Shown here: in pieces, positions 57-37,721 of the stretch
How positions within the stretch are numbered: the first letter of the stretch is position 1
Layout of the letters: every line of letters begins with the position of its first letter
From: Candidatus Magasanikiibacteriota bacterium
GTDB lineage: Bacteria > Patescibacteriota > Patescibacteriia > Magasanikbacterales > UBA922
Direction of reading: 5' to 3'
DNA: 45,828 bases
Assembly: GCA_043825135.1 (NCBI GenBank)
Contig: JBDRSF010000010.1
Span: forward strand, 1 to 45,828
Notes under the pieces: generated by a model
Databases searched by the model: none
Told to the model about the DNA's origin: nothing
What the model saw: only the letters and a program-made list of their open reading frames with translations
Translations under genes and position numbers: made by a program

Positions 57-128
57 AACCCCCTCTCTTGCGAAGAGAGGGGGAAATAAAATGCCCCTCT
101 CTTCGCAAGAGAGGGGTTGGGGTGAGTT
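57..128. repeat. REP-like doublet of GC-rich hairpins
   Basis: CCCCCTCTCTT-gcg-AAGAGAGGGGG (59-83) and inverted copy CCCCTCTCTT-cgc-AAGAGAGGGG (94-116) followed by ttggggtgag; lies just downstream of radA. Confidence 0.75.
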
Positions 129-141
129 ATCGCTATTTGTA

Positions 142-1485
142 TCAAGCATGTCTAATCAACTCCGCAATATTTTTTACTTCAATTATTTTTAAAGTGGCCG
201 GGTGTTTTTGTGCTCCGGGGCTCAGGTGTGTTATTACTCGTTTCATTCCCAACTTCTCACATTCTTTTAAGCGTTTTGTTGTTTGTGTCACGCTTCGTAC
301 CTCACCGCCCAATCCAACTTCACCAAAGACGCATAAATCAGAGCCAAGTGACTTATCTTTGTAGGCACTGGCAATGGCAAGGCAGACTGCGAGATCAACA
401 GCTGGTTCGTCAGCTTTTATACCGCCGACAATATTGAGATGAATATCATATTGTCCTAAATTTATTCCGGCGCGTTTTTGTAATACAGCTGTTAAAACGT
501 GTAGGCGATTCAAATCAAAACCACTGGCTTTTCTAACTGGATAACCAAAAGATGTTTTATTTACTAATGCTTGAATTTCTACCAGCAGGGGGCGCGTACC
601 TTCCATTAAACAGGTTACAACACAGCCAGACATGTTTTCACCGCGTTCTTGCAAAAAACTGGCCGATGGATTGGTTACTTCCTCAAGTCCAGTTTCTTTC
701 ATTTCAAAAATTCCTACTTCATCAGTCGCACCAAAGCGATTTTTTGTTGCTCGTAAAATTCTATAACTATGATAACGCTCACCTTCTAAATACAAAACAG
801 TATCAACCAAATGTTCTAAAGTTTTTGGTCCAGCTACAGCACCATCTTTGGTCACATGGCCAATTATTACAATAGCAACATTGGTTGATTTGGCCACTTC
901 CATTAGTTTTCCAGCACAGGCGCGAATTTGCGAGACGCTACCTGGTTCGCCAGTAGATTCTTCAGAATAAATGGTTTGGATAGAATCAATAACGACTAAT
1001 TTAGGTTTTAGTTGTTTGATAGTAGAACAAATGGTTTCGACATGGACTTCGTTAGCTAATTGCAGTCGGCTGTCGGCTGTCGGCAATCTATCAGCGCGGA
1101 GTTTTATTTGTCCGACTGATTCTTCACCAGAGATATACAAGACATTATCTAGTGCCATGGCGAGTTGCATGGCGAGAGTTGATTTGCCAATTCCAGGTTC
1201 ACCACCAAGCAATATCAGACTACCAGGAACAATGCCACCACCCAAGACACGATCTAGTTCAGATATGTTCGTCTTGGTCCGATTTACATCAGAAGCTTTT
1301 ATTTCAGAAAGTTTTTGGGTTTTAGCAGGGGAATAGTCTAGCTTTCGGCTTTCGGCTTTCGGCTTTTGATTAATTTCTTCTACAATTGTTGACCATTTTC
1401 CACATTCCAAACACCTGCCCGTCCATTTAGAATACTGAGCGTCGCAGTGAGAGCAGACAAAGATTGTATTTGATTTGGTTGACAT
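142..1485 (-). CDS. radA: DNA repair protein RadA/Sms
   Basis: N-terminal C4 zinc finger (CSHC...CLEC), Walker A GEPGIGKST, VVIDSIQ, KNRFG motif, Lon-like C-terminus. Confidence 0.97.
   Translation of the reverse strand: MSTKSNTIFVCSHCDAQYSKWTGRCLECGKWSTIVEEINQKPKAESRKLDYSPAKTQKLSEIKASDVNRTKTNISELDRVLGGGIVPGSLILLGGEPGIGKSTLAMQLAMALDNVLYISGEESVGQIKLRADRLPTADSRLQLANEVHVETICSTIKQLKPKLVVIDSIQTIYSEESTGEPGSVSQIRACAGKLMEVAKSTNVAIVIIGHVTKDGAVAGPKTLEHLVDTVLYLEGERYHSYRILRATKNRFGATDEVGIFEMKETGLEEVTNPSASFLQERGENMSGCVVTCLMEGTRPLLVEIQALVNKTSFGYPVRKASGFDLNRLHVLTAVLQKRAGINLGQYDIHLNIVGGIKADEPAVDLAVCLAIASAYKDKSLGSDLCVFGEVGLGGEVRSVTQTTKRLKECEKLGMKRVITHLSPGAQKHPATLKIIEVKNIAELIRHA
1065..1085. repeat. 7-bp tandem array (GTCGGCT x3) within radA
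   Basis: gtcggct gtcggct gtcggca; encodes LPTADSRL. Confidence 0.7.
1341..1366. repeat. 7-bp tandem array (GCTTTCG x3.7) within radA
   Basis: gctttcg gctttcg gctttcg gcttt; encodes KPKAESRKL in the zinc finger-ATPase linker. Confidence 0.75.
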
Positions 1486-11841: not shown

Positions 11842-13191
11842 ATGCAAAACATACCAGAACAAATTTTTAAGGCCTATGATTTTCGTGGGGTTTACCCGAC
11901 AGAAATTGACGCGGATGTAATGGAAAGAATTGGGCGGGCGTTTGCTGTATTTGCCAAGTCAGACAAGATTTTGGTGGGTTATGATATGCGTTTGTCAGTA
12001 CCGGAAACCTCAACTGCTTTTAAAAAAGGCATAACTGCTATGGGAGTAGATGTGATTGATTTGGGTCAAGTCAGTACAGATACAATTTATTTTGCTTCTG
12101 GTCATTACAAATTACCCGGAGCTATGATTACTGCCTCACACAATCCCAAAGAATATACGGGTGTGAAATTTTGCCGTCCGGGAGCAGAACCGATTGGCAA
12201 AGAAACTGGTTTGGAAGAAATAAAAACTATGGTTTTGACCCCCTCTAACCCCCCCTTGGCAGGGGTGGAAGGTGTGGTGACCAAAAAGGAAGATATTTTA
12301 GAAGAATTTGCTGAACATTGTTATAAATTTATTGATAAAGATAAAATTAAGCCACTTAAAATTGTGATTGATGCTGGTAATGGCATGGCTGGTAAAATTG
12401 TACCTGTTGTTTTTAAAGATTTACCTTGTGAGATTGTTCCTTTATATTTTGAACTAGATGGCAGTTTTCCCAATCACCAGCCCAGCCCGATTGAGTTGGA
12501 AAATAATCTAGATTTAATTGCCAAAGTAAAAAAAACCGGAGCTGATTTTGGGATTGCTTTTGATGGTGATGCGGATCGAGCATTTTTTATTGATGAAAAA
12601 GGTGAGATGATAGACAGCTCACTCATAGTAGCTATGGTAGCAGGGAAGATGTTAGAAAAAAATCCAGGTTCTACAATTATTTACAATGTAGTTGTTAGCA
12701 AGTCTGTACCGGAATTAGTAGAAAGGCTGGGCGGTAAACCTCTTATGAGTAAAGTGGGGCATTCATACATTAAGCAAGACATGAAAGAAACCAATGCGGT
12801 TTTTGCAGGTGAACATTCTGGTCATTATTATTTTCGAGATAATTACCGAGCTGATAGTGGAATTATTACTGCTCTCGTCGTTTTGCAAATGTTGAGTGAG
12901 TCTGCCAAGAAAATGTCAGAATTATTGCAAGAATTTAAAATCTATCACAAGATTGAGGAGACAAATTTTAGAGTTGAGGATAAAGAGGTGATAATAAATA
13001 AATTAAAAGAAAAATTCCCAAATAATATTATTCAGGAATTTGACGGTGTTAGTTTTGACCTTGGTGATTGGTGGTTTAATGTCCGTCCGAGTAACACTGA
13101 GCCATTATTGCGATTAAATTTGGAAGCAAAGACAGAGGAATTGATGGGGGAGAAGTTTGAGGAAATGAGAGGGTTGATTGAAGATAATTAA
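11842..13191 (+). CDS. manB: Phosphomannomutase/phosphoglucomutase
   Basis: FKAYDFRG, TASHNP phosphoserine loop, FDGDADR metal loop, GEHSGH, RPSNTEP. Confidence 0.92.
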   Translation: MQNIPEQIFKAYDFRGVYPTEIDADVMERIGRAFAVFAKSDKILVGYDMRLSVPETSTAFKKGITAMGVDVIDLGQVSTDTIYFASGHYKLPGAMITASHNPKEYTGVKFCRPGAEPIGKETGLEEIKTMVLTPSNPPLAGVEGVVTKKEDILEEFAEHCYKFIDKDKIKPLKIVIDAGNGMAGKIVPVVFKDLPCEIVPLYFELDGSFPNHQPSPIELENNLDLIAKVKKTGADFGIAFDGDADRAFFIDEKGEMIDSSLIVAMVAGKMLEKNPGSTIIYNVVVSKSVPELVERLGGKPLMSKVGHSYIKQDMKETNAVFAGEHSGHYYFRDNYRADSGIITALVVLQMLSESAKKMSELLQEFKIYHKIEETNFRVEDKEVIINKLKEKFPNNIIQEFDGVSFDLGDWWFNVRPSNTEPLLRLNLEAKTEELMGEKFEEMRGLIEDN

Positions 13192-13200
13192 ATTTATATG

Positions 13201-13929
13201 GTAGGGGCGGGTCTGGACCCGCCATTTGCCAGTATAAAAATTCAAAAATTATTACGATCTCGCCACCATTTGGCGGGATTTTTATTTATATAATTTTGAA
13301 TGGCAAAAAATGATTTTTCATCACGAATTATGTGGTCATAAAATGATCGTTGCCATTTGAAATTTTCAAATCCATTGTGATGGATATATTTGGATGATGT
13401 GGTTTTTAATGCGCCGATTAATTCGGATAATGGTTTGATTTTTATTGCATCGTTTGCCGTAGGGGCGGGTTGCGACCCGCCCTCATTTGCAAATGATACG
13501 TTTGGATATGATTTATTTATTGGTTGCGCGATGGGGACAGGTCGCGACCTGTCCGTACACGATCCGTCAATATGCGACCCGCCCGTGTATGGTTTAATGT
13601 GTGATGAATCAATTTGTATTATCCCATGCACATGGTTCGGCATTACAACAAAATCGTGTAATACAATATACGGATATTGTCCGGCCAGCCATTGCCATTG
13701 TTCCCAGACAATTCGTCCCAATTTATTTATGCACATTATTTCATTGTGAATTCCACCGAAATAATTTATTCGTTCACGGGTATAAAATGTCACAAAATAT
13801 AAACCATCCTGCGAATAATCATATCCCAATAATCGATTCCGTTTACGGTCGTGTAGGGTTTGTTTGATGATTTTCATAAAAAATAGGGCGGGTGGTATAA
13901 AAAAAGGGCGGGTCCAGACCCGCCCCTAC
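13201..13929. mobile_element. REP-flanked Y1 transposase locus (RAYT/REPtron-like)
   Basis: Perfect 23-bp inverted GTAG-headed palindromes GTAGGGGCGGGTCTGGACCCGCC at 13201-13223 and 13907-13929; further REP copies inside the gene. Confidence 0.85.
13242..13877 (-). CDS. REP-associated tyrosine transposase (IS200/Y1 HUH family)
   Basis: RL.GYDYSQ.G.YFVT, MPNHVHGI (HUH), WQRSFYDHIIR, YINKNP catalytic Tyr. Confidence 0.92.
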   Translation of the reverse strand: MKIIKQTLHDRKRNRLLGYDYSQDGLYFVTFYTRERINYFGGIHNEIMCINKLGRIVWEQWQWLAGQYPYIVLHDFVVMPNHVHGIIQIDSSHIKPYTGGSHIDGSCTDRSRPVPIAQPINKSYPNVSFANEGGSQPAPTANDAIKIKPLSELIGALKTTSSKYIHHNGFENFKWQRSFYDHIIRDEKSFFAIQNYINKNPAKWWRDRNNF

Positions 13930-13943
13930 GTTTGTTATTTATT

Positions 13944-14195
13944 TTACATCGTTTTTGGCAATTCACTATTAATATTTTTTTCAACATCCGTTTTTTTCTC
14001 TTTTCCAATTACATATATATAAAATATTTCAAAAATACCAAGGGTGTTGAAAATTAACAAGATGACAAACCATGGTTTGCTATCATTTTTGGCTGCTCGC
14101 CAAAGAGCCAAGCCTTTCCAGACCAGTGACCACAGAATCATGAGGATAAATGTTATAACGAGAGAGATTGTTTGGTATAGTTCTACATTTTGCAT
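13944..14195 (-). CDS. DUF5652-like small membrane protein
   Basis: WSLVWKGLALWRAAKN...WFVILLIFNTLGIFEIFYIY signature. Confidence 0.8.
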   Translation of the reverse strand: MQNVELYQTISLVITFILMILWSLVWKGLALWRAAKNDSKPWFVILLIFNTLGIFEIFYIYVIGKEKKTDVEKNINSELPKTM

Positions 14196-16313: not shown

Positions 16314-16354
16314 ACGAACTACGAAATGCTTACGAAATTACGAACTACGAACTT
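16313..16354. repeat. Left inverted arm (TACGAAC-type 7-mer array) of GxxExxY cassette 1
   Basis: tacgaactacgaaatgcttacgaaattacgaactacgaactt; 16328-16354 is the exact reverse complement of 16773-16799. Confidence 0.9.
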
Positions 16355-16763
16355 ATTCGTTCACCACTCTTTTTATAATTGCCCCTCCGTGTGTGAAACA
16401 TACTAAAAGTCCAAGTTTTAAATCAAGAGTTTCTAAATATTGTTTAGTTTGATCTATTATTTTTCTTGAAATAAATTCACCTCTTTTGATCTCAATTACG
16501 ATCTTATCTTCAACTAAGAAATCTAGAAAATATTTTCCAACTATTTCATTATCAAATTTTAGAGGCACATAGGCTTGTTCTATGAATTTAATTCCACTTT
16601 TTTCAAATCCGATCTTTATGGCTTTTTGATAATATTTTTCTTGGTGACCACCACCAAGTTGTTTGGCAACCTCAAAAAATATACCATTAAGTTTAAAACT
16701 TAATTCAGGATAAAACAAGTCTTTTCTTCTTATTATGTATTTTTTCCCTCCTTTATTGTCCAT
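16353..16763 (-). CDS. GxxExxY protein (PD-(D/E)xK nuclease fold)
   Basis: GHQEKYY motif; LDFLVEDKIVIEIK. Confidence 0.92.
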   Translation of the reverse strand: MDNKGGKKYIIRRKDLFYPELSFKLNGIFFEVAKQLGGGHQEKYYQKAIKIGFEKSGIKFIEQAYVPLKFDNEIVGKYFLDFLVEDKIVIEIKRGEFISRKIIDQTKQYLETLDLKLGLLVCFTHGGAIIKRVVNE

Positions 16764-16772
16764 AAATATTAC

Positions 16773-16815
16773 AAGTTCGTAGTTCGTAATTTCGTAAGCT
16801 GTTCGTCAGTTCGTA
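16773..16815. repeat. Right inverted arm of GxxExxY cassette 1
   Basis: aagttcgtagttcgtaatttcgtaagctgttcgtcagttcgta. Confidence 0.9.
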
Positions 16816-19177: not shown

Positions 19178-20209
19178 ATGAAAGCACAATTAGAAAAATT
19201 AAAAAAAGAATTTATAAAAGGCCTTAATGAAATCAAGGATGTTTTGCAGTTGGAAGAGTTGGAACAAAAGTTTTTTTCCCGCAAATCCGGTGAGATGACC
19301 GAGGCCATGAAGAGCTTGAAAAAACTATCAGGCGATGCCAAAAAAGAATTTGGTAAACTTGCTAATGAGGTAAAGAGAGAGTTAGAAGATTTGTATAGTA
19401 AAAAGAAGCAGGAAATTGAGAAAAATAAAATGGGAGATTTGGCTGATACAGAATGGATTGATGTTACTCAACCAAAGTTGCCTAAAGCAGAAAAAGGTCA
19501 TCTACATCCAGAGACTTTAGCACTAAGGGAGATGGAAGAGGTGGCAAGGAATATGGGATTTTTGGTTGAAGATGGACCAGAATTGGATAGTGACTATTTT
19601 TGTTTTGAAGCTTTAAATATTCCAGATAGTCATCCAGCTAGAGACTCGCAAGATACTTTTTATATCAAAGATCATCCGGAGTTATGCATGCGCCCTCATG
19701 TTTCTAATATGCAAGTTAGGTCGCTTCAAAAGTATGGCGCACCACTTAGAATTGCTTATCCTGGTCGTACATTTAGAAATGAAGCAACAGATGCTTCTCA
19801 TGATCACACTTTTTATCAGTTTGAAGCCTTGGTGGTGGATAAAGATATAAATGTTGGAAATTTGATTGGAATTATAAAAGAATTATTAGGTGGTTTGTAC
19901 AAGAAAGAGGTTGAGGTTCGTTTGCGTCCTGGATATTTTCCTTTTGTAGAACCCGGATTTGAGTTGGATATGAAATGTCTTATTTGCGAAGGTCAGGGCT
20001 GTGGTGCTTGTGGTCATGCTGGTTGGGTAGAGACTTTAGGCTGTGGTTTGATGCATCCGCGTGTTTTAGAAGCTGCTGGGCTCGATCCAAAAGAGTGGAG
20101 TGGATTGGCATTTGGTATGGGTCTTACTAGATTAGTTATGCAAAAATATAAAGTTGAAGATATACGGCATCTAAATAGTGGGGATTTGCGGTTTTTAAAG
20201 CAATTTTAA
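19178..20209 (+). CDS. pheS: Phenylalanyl-tRNA synthetase alpha subunit
   Basis: HPARDSQDTFY, FRNEATDASH, YFPFVEP, GLAFGMG, DLRFLKQF. Confidence 0.97.
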   Translation: MKAQLEKLKKEFIKGLNEIKDVLQLEELEQKFFSRKSGEMTEAMKSLKKLSGDAKKEFGKLANEVKRELEDLYSKKKQEIEKNKMGDLADTEWIDVTQPKLPKAEKGHLHPETLALREMEEVARNMGFLVEDGPELDSDYFCFEALNIPDSHPARDSQDTFYIKDHPELCMRPHVSNMQVRSLQKYGAPLRIAYPGRTFRNEATDASHDHTFYQFEALVVDKDINVGNLIGIIKELLGGLYKKEVEVRLRPGYFPFVEPGFELDMKCLICEGQGCGACGHAGWVETLGCGLMHPRVLEAAGLDPKEWSGLAFGMGLTRLVMQKYKVEDIRHLNSGDLRFLKQF

Positions 20210-20281: not shown

Positions 20282-20695
20282 ATGGAGGAAAATTTTTTAG
20301 AGAAAGAATTGAGTTATAATTTAGTAGGATGTTTTTATAAAGTTAGAAATTTGTATGGGGTGGGACATAGAGAGAAGTTTTATGATGATGTTTTGGGAGA
20401 AATTTTGGAATATGAGAAATTGTCCTTTGTAGATAAACCAAGAATTCCACTGTATTCTGTATTAAGTGGTAGACAGGTTGGTTATAATATTCCGGATAAG
20501 TTGGTAGAAAATAAAATAATTGTGGAAATAAAAGCAAAGCCATTTTTTACAAAAGATGATATCAATCAAGCTACGGAGTATTTAAAGATAACCGAGTGTG
20601 AAATATTATATTTAGTTAATTTTAGCGAGCCAGAGTTTAGACCAAGGAGATTCATCTATACAAATAATCGCAAACCATTTTTAAATCTTAAATAA
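20282..20695 (+). CDS. GxxExxY protein (PD-(D/E)xK nuclease fold)
   Basis: GHREKFY motif; PDKLVENKIIVEIK; LYLVNF. Confidence 0.9.
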   Translation: MEENFLEKELSYNLVGCFYKVRNLYGVGHREKFYDDVLGEILEYEKLSFVDKPRIPLYSVLSGRQVGYNIPDKLVENKIIVEIKAKPFFTKDDINQATEYLKITECEILYLVNFSEPEFRPRRFIYTNNRKPFLNLK

Positions 20696-20762: not shown

Positions 20763-23282
20763 ATGTTATTAAGTTACAATTGGCTAAAAAATTACGTTGA
20801 TTTACCAGACTCTCTCTCACCAGAAGAGTTGGCTTTGAAATTGACAATGAGTACTGTTGAAGTTGAGGGTGTAGAAAAACAAGGCAAAGATCTTGAAAAT
20901 ATTGTAGTAGGACTTGTTAAGAAAGCTGAGAAACATCCTGATGCGGACAAATTGCAAGTTTGTACTGTTTACGATGGTGTGGAAGATTATCAAGTTGTTT
21001 GTGGTGGTTCAAATGTGATAGAAGGAATGAAAGTGGCTTTTGGAAAAATTGGTGCCAAAGTAAAGTGGCATGGTGAAGGTGAGCTTATTGAGCTTACTAA
21101 AGCAAAAATTCGTGGAGTAGAATCATTTGGTATGATTTGTGCATCTACTGAGATTGGTTTGGGTGAGATGTTTCCAGTGAAAGATGGGAAAGAAATCTTA
21201 GATTTGAGCTCCCACCACCCCGGCCTAAAGGCCACCCCTCCTCGGGCAGGAGGGGACAATATTGGTATGCCTTTGGCAGAGTTTCTAGGCTTAAATGATG
21301 TCATAATCGATATTGACAATAAATCCATGACGCATCGTCCAGATTTGTGGGGGCATTATGGTATGAGTAGAGAAGTGGCAGTGCTTTATCATAAAGAATT
21401 GGTGGAATATAATCCACCTTTGATTAAAAAAATAAAGAAAGCTGGAGGGACAGGTCGCGACCTGTCCGTACACGACCTGTCCGTACAAGTGCAAGATACA
21501 AAATTATGTCCGCGATATATGGCAGTAGTGATTGATGGGGTGAAGATCGTGCCGTCGCCAGAGTGGATGCAGAAGAAGTTAATTGCGGTTGGTTTGCGTC
21601 CGATTAATAATATTGTTGATATTACTAATTATATTTTGTTTGATCTTGGTCAGCCACTCCATGCTTTTGATAAATCAGCAATCAGCAATCAGCAATCAGC
21701 AGTCACGATTATTGTTAGGCGAGCCAAAAATGGTGAAGAATTTGTCACTCTAGATGATAAAAGCCACAAATTAACGAATGACGATTTGGTAATTGCTGAC
21801 AGTGAAAAAGCCGTGGCTTTGGCTGGGGTGATAGGTGGTTTAAACAGTGAAGTAAAAGATGATACTATAACTATAGTTTTTGAATCAGCTAATTTTGATG
21901 CACTGAATATCAGACGAACAGCGACTCGTTTGGGAATAAGAACTGATTCATCAGCTCGGTTTGAAAAGAGTTTAGATCCAAATAATTGTGAATTAGCTTT
22001 GAAACGTGCGGTTGAATTGACATTAGAGCTATGCCCAAATGCAAAAGTTGTAAGCAATGTTGTTGATGAAGCCAATTTTAATTTGAATCAAGGGCCAATA
22101 GAATTATCATTAGAATTTTTAAATAAAAAGATTGGTGTTGAATTGGAGAAAAAAGAAGTTGTAAAGATTTTGGAATCGCTTGGGTTTGGCATAAAAGAAA
22201 AGAAAGATGTATTATTGGTTGCTATACCAACTTGGCGTGCGACTAAAGATATTTCTATTCCTGAAGATTTAGTTGAAGAAGTCGCTAGAATTTATGGCTA
22301 TGGCAATATTCCAACAGTCTTACCAACTTTTCCAATTACACCACCAGAGAGAAATGAATTAAAGTTGCTGGAGAGAAAAATCAAAAATATATTAAGCTTG
22401 GAATTTGGTTTTAATGAAGTTTATAATTACTCTTTTATTTCACCAAAGTGGATTGAAATATTAGAACTAGATAAGGAAGATTTTATTGAACTAGATAATC
22501 CAATTGCAAAAGACAGACCATATTTGCGCCGAGGTCTGTGGCCAAATTTGTTAGAAAATGTAGAGAAAAATTTACATGAGTTTGATCAAGTAAAAATATT
22601 TGAAATTGGTCAGGTGTTTGATAAGCTTAACCCTGGTCAAAGAGCAAGTGATAATGGTGATGATTTGTTACCAAGGCAAGATTTGATGTTGGGAATGGTG
22701 TTTGCTGGTAAGGGATTTGATAAGCCGTTTTTTGAATTATCATCGGCTATGTCAGGAATTTTAGACCATTTTAATTGCACTTATGAATTAAAAGCTAAGA
22801 GTGAGATGGATGGAGAATTTATTCATCCGGGTCGTATAGCTGAGATAGTAGTTAATGGAGAAGTAATTGGTGCGGTGGCTGAGATACATCCAATTACATT
22901 AAACAAGATTGGCTTGGACGAGAGCACAGCGGTATTAGAAATTAGTTTACAAAAACTAGTAGAGCAAGTATTAGAAAAAAATAATTATCAAAAACTTTCA
23001 GTCTATCCTTCTGTCGAGCGGGATGTGGCTTTTCTAGTAGACAAAAAAATTTCTAATACAGAAATAATTGAGAAGCTAAAAAATATTGATGGATTAGTGA
23101 GAAATGTTGAATTGTTTGATGTTTATGAAGGTGATAAAGTTGGTGCTGGAAAAAAGAGTATGGCTTATCGTATTACATATCGTAGTGATGATAAGACTTT
23201 GGAGTCGGTTGAGGTTGATAAGGTTCACGATAAACTGGTTAAAATATTGGAGAAAGAATTTAGTGCTGAGGTGAGGAAATAA
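20763..23282 (+). CDS. pheT: Phenylalanyl-tRNA synthetase beta subunit, with three repeat-derived in-frame segments
   Basis: HPDADKL, RGVESFGMIC, NNIVDITNY, EDLVEEVARIYGY, C-terminal anticodon-binding domain (RDVAF...LFDVYEG). Confidence 0.97.
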   Translation: MLLSYNWLKNYVDLPDSLSPEELALKLTMSTVEVEGVEKQGKDLENIVVGLVKKAEKHPDADKLQVCTVYDGVEDYQVVCGGSNVIEGMKVAFGKIGAKVKWHGEGELIELTKAKIRGVESFGMICASTEIGLGEMFPVKDGKEILDLSSHHPGLKATPPRAGGDNIGMPLAEFLGLNDVIIDIDNKSMTHRPDLWGHYGMSREVAVLYHKELVEYNPPLIKKIKKAGGTGRDLSVHDLSVQVQDTKLCPRYMAVVIDGVKIVPSPEWMQKKLIAVGLRPINNIVDITNYILFDLGQPLHAFDKSAISNQQSAVTIIVRRAKNGEEFVTLDDKSHKLTNDDLVIADSEKAVALAGVIGGLNSEVKDDTITIVFESANFDALNIRRTATRLGIRTDSSARFEKSLDPNNCELALKRAVELTLELCPNAKVVSNVVDEANFNLNQGPIELSLEFLNKKIGVELEKKEVVKILESLGFGIKEKKDVLLVAIPTWRATKDISIPEDLVEEVARIYGYGNIPTVLPTFPITPPERNELKLLERKIKNILSLEFGFNEVYNYSFISPKWIEILELDKEDFIELDNPIAKDRPYLRRGLWPNLLENVEKNLHEFDQVKIFEIGQVFDKLNPGQRASDNGDDLLPRQDLMLGMVFAGKGFDKPFFELSSAMSGILDHFNCTYELKAKSEMDGEFIHPGRIAEIVVNGEVIGAVAEIHPITLNKIGLDESTAVLEISLQKLVEQVLEKNNYQKLSVYPSVERDVAFLVDKKISNTEIIEKLKNIDGLVRNVELFDVYEGDKVGAGKKSMAYRITYRSDDKTLESVEVDKVHDKLVKILEKEFSAEVRK

Positions 23283-37655: not shown

Positions 37656-37721
37656 ATGATAGATGATAAATGATAGATGATAACCTGCTAAAAAATATCA
37701 TCTATCATTTATCATATATCA
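37656..37721. repeat. Inverted pair of 7-bp tandem arrays (TGATARA x4), no cargo gene
   Basis: atgatagatgataaatgatagatgata ...13 nt... tatcatctatcatttatcatatatca; 25/26 paired. Confidence 0.85.

What the first reader, a model, noticed from the sequence alone, without database searches (positions are those of the whole stretch)
21210..21705. PheT carries three different repeat-derived in-frame segments, one identical to the RAYT REP
Seen: (a) 21210-21256, a double hairpin encoding SHHPGLKATPPRAGG. (b) 21447-21475 GGGACAGGTCGCGACCTGTCCGTACACGA, 29/29 identical to 13534-13562 inside the RAYT gene, followed by a partial duplication (GTGRDLSVHDLSVQ). (c) 21673-21700 AATCAGC x4 (SAISNQQS). An essential protein has taken up three unrelated repeat families, reminiscent of Rickettsia palindromic elements. 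The exact match directly links the transposase locus to protein-sequence change.
Basis: partly seen in the sequence, partly recalled or inferred. Interest (0 to 1): 0.75.

Follow-up and report, generated by a model that had tools for sequence, protein, structure and literature searches.

The report
Repeat DNA translated inside PheT loops
The essential phenylalanyl-tRNA synthetase beta subunit of a tiny groundwater bacterium carries three short repeat-derived stretches, all read in frame in floppy surface loops. This is one example of a habit seen across this genome and its relatives.

Summary
All three segments are present as described, in an intact 839-aa PheT with every PheT domain. Segments (a) and (b) are absent from 29 orthologs; (c) fills a loop of variable length.

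- **(a)** A 36-nt GC-rich double hairpin from a small dispersed family (7 loci).
- **(b)** A REP hairpin with a GTAC foot plus a 15-nt tandem duplication. It is 29/29 identical to a copy inside a REP-flanked RAYT gene. That gene fits TnpA-REP subclass 2.4, already published as carrying REPs in frame within itself.
- **(c)** A heptamer array in a loop where 8 of 30 orthologs carry arrays of different units.

(a) and (b) have pLDDT below 50 in the AlphaFold2 model. An independent metagenome contig carries the REP without the duplication.

The habit is genome-wide: 51 ORFs of 250 aa or more hold such elements, including PolA, TGT, TruB, MetRS, LigA and RecG. Intragenic REPs, some in tRNA synthetases, are already published, so the REP part is a new member of a known kind. 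I did not find recurrent heptamer arrays at one loop in print, although this scan has noted them in other Patescibacteria.

Most likely these are tolerated selfish or mutational DNA rather than an adaptation.

The parts
20763..23282 (+). pheT, phenylalanyl-tRNA synthetase beta subunit, 839 aa, intact frame
   Evidence: ORF; five PheT Pfam domains, E 2e-68 to 4e-16; full-length match to solved PheRS beta chains, 2rhs_B E 1.9e-130
21210..21257 (+). (a) GC-rich double hairpin. The 12 inserted codons are placed by the alignment at 21222-21257; true edges are ambiguous within 21210-21257.
   Evidence: Absent from 29 of 29 orthologs. Site is 114 nt against a commonest length of 78 nt in 20 of 30. 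Fold. Seven loci fit the family pattern. pLDDT below 50 at residues 154-164.
21447..21475 (+). (b) REP: 20-nt palindrome 21448-21467 plus GTAC foot; 29 nt identical to 13534-13562
   Evidence: Encodes GTGRDLSVH, matching the VGTGRDLSLH consensus of the RAYT variable region. pLDDT below 50 at residues 228-232.
21458..21487 (+). 15-nt tandem duplication (REP 3' arm plus foot, twice). The second copy encodes D238-V241 at the start of strand E237-243.
   Evidence: TRF period 15, 2.0 copies, 100%. One copy is missing in the X3 contig. V241 is nearly invariant. Strand.
21673..21705 (+). (c) heptamer array AATCAGC x4.7, encoding (K)SAISNQQSAV
   Evidence: TRF. Lies in the loop between strands E299-303 and E313-320, block pLDDT 80. 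8 of 30 orthologs have a period-7 array in this loop. The same unit in the same frame occurs in PolA at C11:9746-9780.
13242..13877 (-). [quoted passage not shown]
   Evidence: Pfam Y1_Tnp 24.2 bits (cutoff 23). NCBIfam REP_Tyr_transpos 57 bits (cutoff 80). NHVH, WQ and YINKNP motifs. 3352 homologs, some named RayT by a source.
13201..13223 (+). REP with GTAG foot flanking the RAYT gene (downstream of it on the - strand)
   Evidence: Direct repeat family D3 and inverted pair I2, 13186-13227 / 13903-13944, 81% complementary
13902..13925 (+). Inverted REP flanking the RAYT gene on the other side
13459..13482 (+). REP copy inside the RAYT ORF (encodes GGSQPAPT on the - strand)
13534..13562 (+). 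REP copy inside the RAYT ORF, 29/29 identical to the PheT copy; encodes CTDRSRPVP on the - strand

Best explanation
PheT of this Magasanikbacteria (candidate phyla radiation) genome carries three independent pieces of repeat DNA. Each sits in a loop that tolerates changes in length, and each is translated as part of the protein.

**(a)** A 36-nt GC-rich double-hairpin element from a small dispersed family, inserted in the disordered connector after the tRNA-binding (B2) domain.

**(b)** A REP of the resident RAYT: a 10+10-nt palindrome with a GTAC foot.
- Inferred, not shown: it was copied into the linker before the B3/4 domain as single-stranded DNA by the HUH/Tyr enzyme, as for E. coli TnpA-REP.
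- Its 3' arm plus foot encodes DLSV, which stands in for the first residues of the next beta-strand.
- In this strain those 15 nt were then duplicated in tandem.

**(c)** A heptamer microsatellite in a B3/4 loop that repeatedly acquires such arrays in this family. The process that makes them is unknown; slippage with homogenisation, or templated copying between loci, are candidates.

None of the three is likely to serve PheRS. Only in-frame, stop-free events in tolerant loops survive in an essential gene of an approximately 85% coding genome, and that filter explains where they lie.

**Shown:** presence, absence from orthologs, loop position, family membership, RAYT/REP co-occurrence.
**Inferred:** translation, the RAYT-catalysed mechanism, neutrality.
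For: **Insertions relative to orthologs.**
- (a) is absent from 29 of 29 orthologs.
- (b) makes the site 81 nt against a commonest length of 51 nt (22 of 30).
- (c) makes the loop 42 nt against a shortest common length of 30 nt (10 of 30).
- Alignment to a solved PheRS beta chain is gapped at all three sites.

**Loops.** pLDDT is below 50 at 154-164 and 228-232, both coil. (c) lies in coil 307-312. No invariant column falls inside the inserts.

**REP/RAYT.**
- The RAYT has the NHVH, WQ and YINKNP motifs and is flanked by inverted REPs.
- Homologs from several phyla encode VGTGRDLSLH or RDRSRPVPT in the variable region. These are the two orientations of the same hairpin.
- The REP pattern occurs in 6 of 41 genomes, all among the 8 of 41 with a RAYT homolog. 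None of the 33 genomes without a RAYT homolog has it, and the reversed-pattern control gives 0 everywhere.

**Genome-wide habit.**
- 136 GC-rich hairpins: 58 inside crude ORFs, 74 intergenic, 4 at ORF edges.
- 151 period-7 arrays at score 40 or more, against 0 in a Markov control.
- 51 ORFs of 250 aa or more are affected.
- Hosts include PolA, TGT (three hairpins), TruB, MetRS, RecG, UvrD, LigA and Dus.
- Eight sites in PolA, TGT, TruB and MetRS were compared with orthologs. The five GC-hairpin sites in TGT, TruB and MetRS are longer than in most orthologs. The PolA REP site is only 2-3 aa longer, and the two PolA heptamer sites are not longer than in some orthologs, so these are mostly overwrites.

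**Same loops reused in relatives.** G022 PheT has a palindrome peptide near site (a) and a GTAG REP with a nested hairpin at site (b). G002 has a heptamer array at site (b).

**Independent contigs** support (b), (c) and most of (a).
Against: - No RNA or protein evidence exists for this gene, so translation of the inserts is inferred only from the intact frame.
- REP copy number is low: 8 strict copies, and about 13 when the degenerate copies are added. Classical REPs number in the hundreds.
- The PheT copy has a GTAC foot, not the canonical GT[AG]G.
- NCBIfam's RAYT equivalog model scores 57 bits, below its cutoff of 80.
- The fold of (a) is not strongly better than shuffles (z = -1.88), and its family is loose.
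- The REP ends at exactly the same junction in G000 and in G022. That fits site-specific targeting or shared ancestry rather than random insertion filtered by selection.
- A heptamer array in an essential gene should be frameshift-prone, so it may not be strictly neutral.
- Gene calls for the genome-wide counts are my own crude ORF calls. Some N-terminal cases may lie upstream of the true start codon.
Confidence: 0.72

Rival explanations
1. The REP in PheT, and the same-unit heptamer arrays in PheT and PolA, were not placed by a transposase. They were written by template switching or ectopic gene conversion at short homologies, which overwrote loop codons. On this view the RAYT is only a co-resident carrier of the same hairpin.
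For: - The net length change is small where REPs sit in PolA (+2-3 aa) and TruB (+1 to +5 aa against G001 and G014; G002 and G012 carry longer inserts of their own there).
- The REP 3' arm replaces the start of a conserved strand in PheT.
- (c) has the same length as the loop in 9 other orthologs.
- The AATCAGC array occurs at only two loci, both in ORFs, both in the same frame.
- The 29-nt identity runs 3 nt beyond the foot into the next half-unit.
Against: - REP presence is confined to genomes that have a RAYT: 6 of 6 REP-bearing genomes have one, and 0 of 33 genomes without a RAYT have the REP.
- The inserted unit always includes the foot tetranucleotide.
- RAYT cleavage at the foot is established for E. 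coli TnpA-REP. This comes from the background text of PMC6006769 and my own knowledge of the structural work.
Confidence: 0.2
2. The inserts are adaptive. They add new surface peptides that tune PheRS (tRNA binding, editing or partner binding), or the hairpins act in the mRNA to regulate translation or stability.
For: - The same three loops carry inserts in several lineages.
- Site (c) lies in the B3/4 domain, which I recall as the editing domain.
- Hairpins in mRNA can slow ribosomes (general knowledge).
Against: - The sequences at each site differ completely between close relatives: a REP, a heptamer array, or nothing.
- The nearest sequenced congener, G001, lacks (a) and (b).
- Identical elements sit in unrelated proteins and in intergenic DNA.
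- The inserts are low-confidence coil.
Confidence: 0.06
3. Assembly artefact: repeat-rich reads from other loci or other organisms were wrongly joined into pheT.
For: The genome is a 77-contig metagenome bin. REP-bearing contigs from other places also pile up on 21436-21472 (records 23 and 24).
Against: - The frame is intact across all three segments.
- One X1 contig spans the whole kilobase with 0 differences.
- An X2 contig from another study spans (c).
- A diverged X3 contig from a third study spans 21212-21718 with only in-frame indels.
Confidence: 0.02

Closest known systems
Intragenic GTAG/CGTC REPs (Di Nocera et al. 2013, PMC3733652; abstract and passages read)
   Same: Short REP palindromes with a tetranucleotide foot lie in frame inside known genes. 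Many hosts are DNA replication or repair genes and some are tRNA synthetases. The authors argue the inserts sit in flexible linkers or loops. Here REPs sit in PheT, PolA and TruB, and other hairpins sit in UvrD, RecG and MetRS.
   Different: - The organism is a candidate-phyla-radiation bacterium with only about 8-13 REP copies.
- About 6 of the 9 copies outside the RAYT locus are inside ORFs, counting copies. In that paper most REPs are intergenic.
- The foot here is often GTAC.
- Their list of intragenic REPs (Additional file 3) was not seen.
TnpA-REP / RAYT subclass 2.4 (Bertels group 4) with REPs inside the transposase gene (Quentin et al. 2018, PMC6006769; passages and Table 1 read)
   Same: NH[IFV]H, WQ and Y...NP motifs. 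A variable insertion between HuH and Y that is made of in-frame REPs. Length near the 194-aa median (211 aa here). REPs flank the gene. Some copies are 'double foot' REPs, such as C11:8457.
   Different: - The paper's sample was rich in Cyanobacteria and Bacteroidetes; no candidate-phyla-radiation member is named in the passages I read.
- The Y motif here is YINKNP, not YIxNNP.
- Activity is untested.
Rickettsia palindromic elements (Ogata et al. 2000; seen only as described in the review PMC10969869, and in PMC3733652)
   Same: Selfish palindromic repeats inserted in frame in many unrelated housekeeping genes, compatible with protein fold.
   Different: RPEs are about 100-150 bp and encode a conserved peptide module. 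No transposase is linked to them in what I read. The elements here are 20-47 nt, belong to several families, and one family has a cognate RAYT.
Over-represented heptanucleotide tandem repeats: cyanobacterial STRR (recalled), Xanthomonas/Nostoc heptamers (PMC4692102) and Beggiatoaceae TAACTGA repeats (PMC4679880); the last two seen only as search listings and abstracts
   Same: Genome-wide excess of 7-nt tandem arrays of a few units each, with a few dominant unit families.
   Different: 121 of 317 arrays lie inside crude ORFs. They are read in frame in essential proteins and recur at one loop of PheT with different units. I did not find this described for Patescibacteria.

Membership tests
REPtron: RAYT / TnpA-REP subclass 2.4 with its REPs | HuH motif NH[IFV]H, W motif WQ, Y motif Y-x-x-x-N-P (Table 1 of PMC6006769) | tested here: met
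   NHVH at 81-84, W175-Q176 and Y196INKNP201. N81, H82, H84, W175, Q176, Y196, N200 and P201 are invariant in 20 homologs.
REPtron: RAYT / TnpA-REP subclass 2.4 with its REPs | Curated profile score for RAYT | tested here: inconclusive
   Pfam Y1_Tnp scores 24.2 bits against a cutoff of 23. NCBIfam REP_Tyr_transpos scores 57 bits against a cutoff of 80. The in-frame REP insert splits the match.
REPtron: RAYT / TnpA-REP subclass 2.4 with its REPs | Gene flanked by inverted REP copies | tested here: met
   Inverted pair 13186-13227 / 13903-13944, 81% complementary; hairpins at 13206-13223 and 13906-13925
REPtron: RAYT / TnpA-REP subclass 2.4 with its REPs | REPs inserted in frame within the tnpA-REP gene, between HuH and Y | tested here: met
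   Hairpins at 13463-13482 and 13535-13554 lie inside the ORF, residues about 90-145
REPtron: RAYT / TnpA-REP subclass 2.4 with its REPs | Conserved 5' GT[AG]G foot on the REP | tested here: inconclusive
   GTAG on the RAYT-flanking copies. GTAC on the PheT, C26, C50 and C57 copies. GTAC...CTAC on C11:8457.
REPtron: RAYT / TnpA-REP subclass 2.4 with its REPs | REP family dispersed in the genome and co-occurring with the RAYT across genomes | tested here: met
   8 strict copies in G000. The pattern occurs in 6 of 41 genomes, all within the 8 of 41 that have a RAYT homolog. Copy number is low, and related genomes are not independent.
REPtron: RAYT / TnpA-REP subclass 2.4 with its REPs | RAYT binds and cleaves its REP as ssDNA | not testable with these tools
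   Needs biochemistry
Rickettsia palindromic elements | Palindromic element of about 100-150 bp encoding a conserved peptide module | tested here: not met
   The elements here are 20-47 nt
Rickettsia palindromic elements | In-frame insertion in many unrelated housekeeping genes, in surface positions | tested here: met
Heptanucleotide tandem repeats (STRR-like long SSRs) | Tandem 7-nt units, three or more copies, with period 7 over-represented in the genome | tested here: met
   AATCAGC x4.7. 151 period-7 arrays at score 40 or more against 0 in one Markov-2 simulation; period 6 gives 3 and period 8 gives 57.
Phase-variable contingency repeats | Unit number varies between strains and switches the gene on and off | tested here: not met
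   Two independent contigs (X2 near-identical, X3 diverged) have no indel in 21673-21705. The gene is essential and in frame. Only two contigs were examined, so rare variants are not excluded.

The most novel reading that the evidence does not exclude
Magasanikbacteria, and perhaps Patescibacteria in general, have an undescribed mutational process that repeatedly writes arrays of 4-5 heptamer units into the same tolerant loops of essential proteins. REP hairpins are written in alongside them, overwriting native codons. On this view a few 'landing-pad' loops, such as the three in PheT, turn over between species while the rest of the protein stays conserved. The heptamer array in the B3/4 loop would have arisen at least five times in the 30 orthologs, with the unit replaced outright between congeners.
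Probability: 0.3. Interest if true: 0.7.

Novelty: new variant of a known kind. Interest (0 to 1): 0.5.

Why it matters
The finding shows that in a very small, gene-dense genome, repeat DNA that normally lives between genes survives inside essential genes. Several repeat classes are involved, and they converge on the same few protein loops.

This matters in four ways:
- **Annotation.** Odd low-complexity peptides in candidate-phyla-radiation proteins can be repeat DNA rather than function.
- **Protein engineering.** The affected loops are natural insertion-tolerant sites in PheRS, PolA, TGT and other enzymes.
- **REP/RAYT biology.** A low-copy system in which most copies are coding tests the idea that REPs persist only in extragenic space.
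- **Heptamer arrays.** Their mechanism of origin is open. One loop with eight independent-looking arrays offers a clean comparative system for studying it.

Tried and rejected
- **Expression.** No RNA holder was listed for this stretch. Two metatranscriptome runs of the same study held next to none of its words. This says nothing about expression.
- **Earlier findings by sequence.** A lookup with the REP region returned nothing.
- **Literature.** No paper on in-frame palindromes or heptamer arrays in candidate-phyla-radiation or Patescibacteria genomes turned up. Searches used: 'Candidate Phyla Radiation' + palindromic + in-frame + repeat; heptanucleotide + tandem repeat + Patescibacteria; RAYT/REPIN/coding/Patescibacteria; small dispersed repeats + cyanobacteria + heptameric; and simple sequence repeats + prokaryotic genomes + heptanucleotide + long SSRs. 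The library lacks most subscription journals. The supplements of PMC3733652 (list of intragenic REPs) and PMC6006769 (Figure S10) were not seen, and either could list PheT-like cases.
- **tRNA link.** I tried to connect it to family (a). My aragorn script listed 38 tRNAs and flagged none as Tyr or as lying near a family (a) copy. My parsing may have missed intron-bearing genes, so I dropped this.
- **Fetched but unused.** Locus L049 (the C22 ORF with an (a)-like element) was fetched but not analysed further.
- **Phase variation of (c).** Rejected on two contigs only.
- **Splicing or bypass of the inserts.** Considered and set aside. All inserts are stop-free multiples of three, which would not be required if they were removed. 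There is no direct test.
- **Common ancestry of the REP at site (b) in G000 and G022.** Left open. A midpoint-rooted FastTree, with no support values read, puts G022 as sister to the clade that holds G000. Four intervening orthologs lack the REP.
Full report
**The gene and the organism.** The window is contig C10 of a 1.17-Mb, 77-contig genome with 35.6% GC. Earlier notes of this scan name it Magasanikbacteria. Sources label the closest named RAYT homologs the same way. ORF 20763..23282 (+) is an intact 839-aa PheT. It has the tRNA_bind, B3_4, B5, core and FDX-ACB domains and aligns end to end with solved PheRS beta chains.

**Observation.**
- (a) 21210-21256 encodes SHHPGLKATPPRAGG and folds into two adjacent hairpins. 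The fold alone is only marginally better than shuffles (z = -1.88, 9 of 200). It is, however, a 58-62% GC island in DNA that is otherwise about 35-42% GC.
- (b) The 29-mer at 21447-21475 is identical to 13534-13562. None of 100 shuffles gave a match. It is followed by a perfect 15-nt tandem duplication at 21458-21487.
- (c) AATCAGC x4.7 lies at 21673-21705.

**Are they insertions?** PheT was found in 39 of 41 genomes searched, counting G000 itself. The 30 best loci, again including G000, were aligned.
- Site (a): G000 has 114 nt where 20 of 30 orthologs have 78. The 12 extra codons are absent from all 29 others.
- Site (b): G000 has 81 nt where 22 of 30 have 51.
- Site (c): the loop is 30 nt in 10 of 30 and 42 nt in 10 of 30, G000 among the latter. 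The array is therefore at most a 4-codon gain and otherwise overwrites loop codons.

An AlphaFold2 model (mean pLDDT 84.4) has three segments below 50: residues 154-164 (a), 228-232 (b) and 740-744. (c) lies in a coil between two strands, with block pLDDT 80.

**Assembly.** A contig from run X1, which may be the source sample, spans 20900-21900 with no difference. An X2 contig from another study spans (c) with one substitution and no gap. An X3 contig from a third study is diverged (55 differences in 498 nt) and runs from 21212 to 21718. Its only indels are +6 nt at 21439-21443 and loss of one 15-nt copy. So a relative carries the REP in PheT without the duplication, and the duplication is a separate, later or reversible event. 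All these indels are multiples of three.

**What (b) is.** ORF 13242..13877 (-) encodes a 211-aa HUH/Tyr protein with the NHVH, WQ and YINKNP motifs. It is flanked by inverted GTAG-footed hairpins and has 3352 homologs, several named RayT by a source. It scores just above Pfam's Y1_Tnp cutoff, but below NCBIfam's RAYT equivalog cutoff because an insert splits the match.

The insert itself consists of REP hairpins read in frame. This is exactly the published signature of TnpA-REP subclass 2.4 (Bertels group 4). That paper also notes REPs in unrelated genes (PMC6006769; passages and Table 1 read).

Across 20 homologs from several phyla, the variable region encodes VGTGRDLSLH or RDRSRPVPT. These are the two orientations of the same palindrome. 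PheT reads GGTGRDLSVH.

The strict REP pattern occurs 8 times in G000. It is found in 6 of 41 related genomes, all among the 8 of 41 with a RAYT homolog, and the reversed-pattern control gives 0. The 20-nt palindrome is letter-identical in four other genera. The 29/29 match therefore shows membership of the RAYT's REP family, not that the RAYT-internal copy was the donor.

**Where the REPs lie.** I count nine copies outside the RAYT locus: six strict and three degenerate.
- Six are inside ORFs: PheT, PolA, TruB, a GT4-type glycosyltransferase (two copies) and a GT2 glycosyltransferase.
- One sits at residues 8-15 of a glycosyltransferase ORF and may be upstream of the true start.
- Two are intergenic.

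In PheT the REP's 3' arm plus foot encodes DLSV. In this strain the second 15-nt copy supplies D238-V241 of strand E237-243, including the nearly invariant V241. In the X3 relative the single copy must do this. In PolA the REP adds 2-3 aa. In TruB it adds 1-5 aa against G001 and G014, while G002 and G012 carry longer inserts of their own there. Overwriting is therefore as apt a description as insertion.

The G022 ortholog, from another genus, has a GTAG-footed REP with a nested second hairpin at site (b). It ends at exactly the same junction. In a midpoint-rooted FastTree, G022 is sister to the clade holding G000, with four REP-less orthologs between them. Two hits on one target, or one gain followed by losses, both remain possible.

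**What (a) is.** A pattern search finds 7 loci, PheT included, with the layout CACCCC, hairpin 1, CCCCTC, loop, GAGGGG, often followed by ACAA. One further copy lies in a 488-aa ORF. It is one of at least six GC-rich hairpin families in the genome. I did not identify an enzyme for it. Earlier notes of this scan link other hairpin families of this genome to GIY-YIG and DUF559 nucleases; I did not test this.

**What (c) is.**
- Period-7 arrays are a hallmark of this genome: 317 at TRF score 30 or more, of which 169 are intergenic, 121 inside crude ORFs and 27 at ORF edges.
- At score 40 or more there are 151, against 0 in one order-2 Markov simulation.
- A few unit families dominate. AATCAGC occurs at two loci only, PheT and PolA, both in frame, giving AISNQQSA.
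- In the same PheT loop, 8 of 30 orthologs carry a heptamer array, each with a different unit. A ninth ortholog has a weak one.
- Five of the six members of the G000 clade have one (one of them weak), and four more lie scattered in other clades. That implies at least five origins, or many losses.
- Within G000's own genus the unit differs outright.
- Neither independent contig shows a change in unit number. This does not look like a phase-variation switch, although only two contigs were examined.

**Generality.** Using my own crude ORF calls (1096 ORFs, 85% coding), 51 ORFs of 250 aa or more contain a GC-rich hairpin or a strong heptamer array.
- Pfam identifies 18 of the 19 proteins scanned, among them DNA polymerase I, TGT (three hairpins), TruB, MetRS, RecG, UvrD, LigA, Dus, a U32 peptidase, a PPDK-like enzyme, BipA and an intein-bearing AddA-like helicase.
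- Eight sites in PolA, TGT, TruB and MetRS were compared with up to five relatives. The five hairpin sites in TGT, TruB and MetRS are longer than in most relatives, while the three PolA sites show little or no net gain. Relatives often carry a different repeat at the same loop.
- Recurrent peptides, such as TPSxSPLxGGE in four enzymes, show that the same element entered in the same frame repeatedly.

**Mechanism and rivals.** My best reading (0.72) is tolerated selfish or mutational DNA. Essentiality filters the events, so only in-frame, stop-free events in loops survive. For (b), I infer mobilisation of REP ssDNA by the RAYT.

A templated-copying or gene-conversion route is a serious alternative for how the copies are written (0.2). 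An adaptive role (0.06) is disfavoured, because close relatives have nothing, or something unrelated, at each site. Artefact (0.02) is disfavoured by three contigs from three studies.

**Novelty.** Intragenic REPs, including some in tRNA synthetases, and REPs inside subclass 2.4 RAYT genes are both published (PMC3733652, PMC6006769). RPEs are the classic analogy (PMC10969869). The REP part is therefore a new member of a known kind, in a new phylum.

I did not find the following in print in the searches listed under Tried and rejected: three repeat classes converging on the same loops of one essential enzyme, and recurrent heptamer arrays with unit turnover at one loop. This scan has, however, noted in-frame heptamer arrays and REP-like hairpins in other Patescibacteria genomes before.

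Noticed in passing
window 20282-20695 (+), between pheS (19178-20209) and pheT: A 137-aa GxxExxY / PD-(D/E)XK_3 gene sits between pheS and pheT. Of the 27 relatives in which both genes are seen, 22 have a pheS-pheT gap of at most 98 nt, 2 carry a homolog of this gene there, and 3 have other gaps of 396-775 nt. The junction looks like a landing site for small genes.
   Followed up: partly
window 16321-16354 and 16773-16806: Inverted arms of 34 nt, 94% complementary and made of TACGAAC-type heptamer units, flank the 136-aa ORF 16353-16763 (-). This could be a hairpin-bounded cassette or an invertible segment.
   Followed up: no
window 60-82 / 94-116: Paired GC-rich hairpins of the CCCCTCTCTT...AAGAGAGGGG family. 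The 10-nt arm occurs 30 times in the genome, often as close pairs.
   Followed up: no
window 13545-13589: By eye, three consecutive 15-nt units inside the RAYT ORF give a five-residue periodicity (YTGGS / HIDGS / CTDRS on the - strand). The period matches that of the PheT duplication. TRF did not report it.
   Followed up: no
window 1341-1366 and 1065-1084, in ORF 142-1485 (-): Two further in-frame heptamer arrays (GCTTTCG x3.7 and GTCGGCT x2.9). The first gives QKPKAESRKL, a peptide that recurs in LigA (C66).
   Followed up: no
window 30520-30566 and 37656-37721: An intergenic heptamer array, ATAAGGA x6.7, and an inverted pair of ATGATAG arrays (26-nt arms, 96% complementary, 13 nt apart) that would form a long AT-rich hairpin.
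   Followed up: no
G000 C28:5621-5869 and C22:39447-39680: Two more RAYT-like paralogs. The C28 copy has two GAGACGAGGCA(C/G)TGCCTCGTCTC hairpins just downstream, in the same crude 155-aa ORF. The genome probably hosts several RAYT/REP pairs.
   Followed up: no
G000 C18:5672-6979 (L036): The tRNA-guanine transglycosylase carries three different GC-rich hairpin inserts (residues 119-126, 220-228, 336-343). All three sites are longer than in G014, G002 and G012; G022 carries inserts of its own at the same places.
   Followed up: partly
G000 C51:10119-14192 (L048): A 1358-aa AddA/UvrD-like helicase-nuclease contains an intein (Intein_splicing and Hint hits at residues about 263-635) as well as a hairpin insert.
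   Followed up: no
L004 (G022 pheT), site (a) region: The G022 ortholog has a 30-nt palindrome encoding SARGGSALGG. The same palindrome family gives FSAQGGSALGGG in G000 MetRS and YSARGGSASGGN in a DUF3048 protein.
   Followed up: partly
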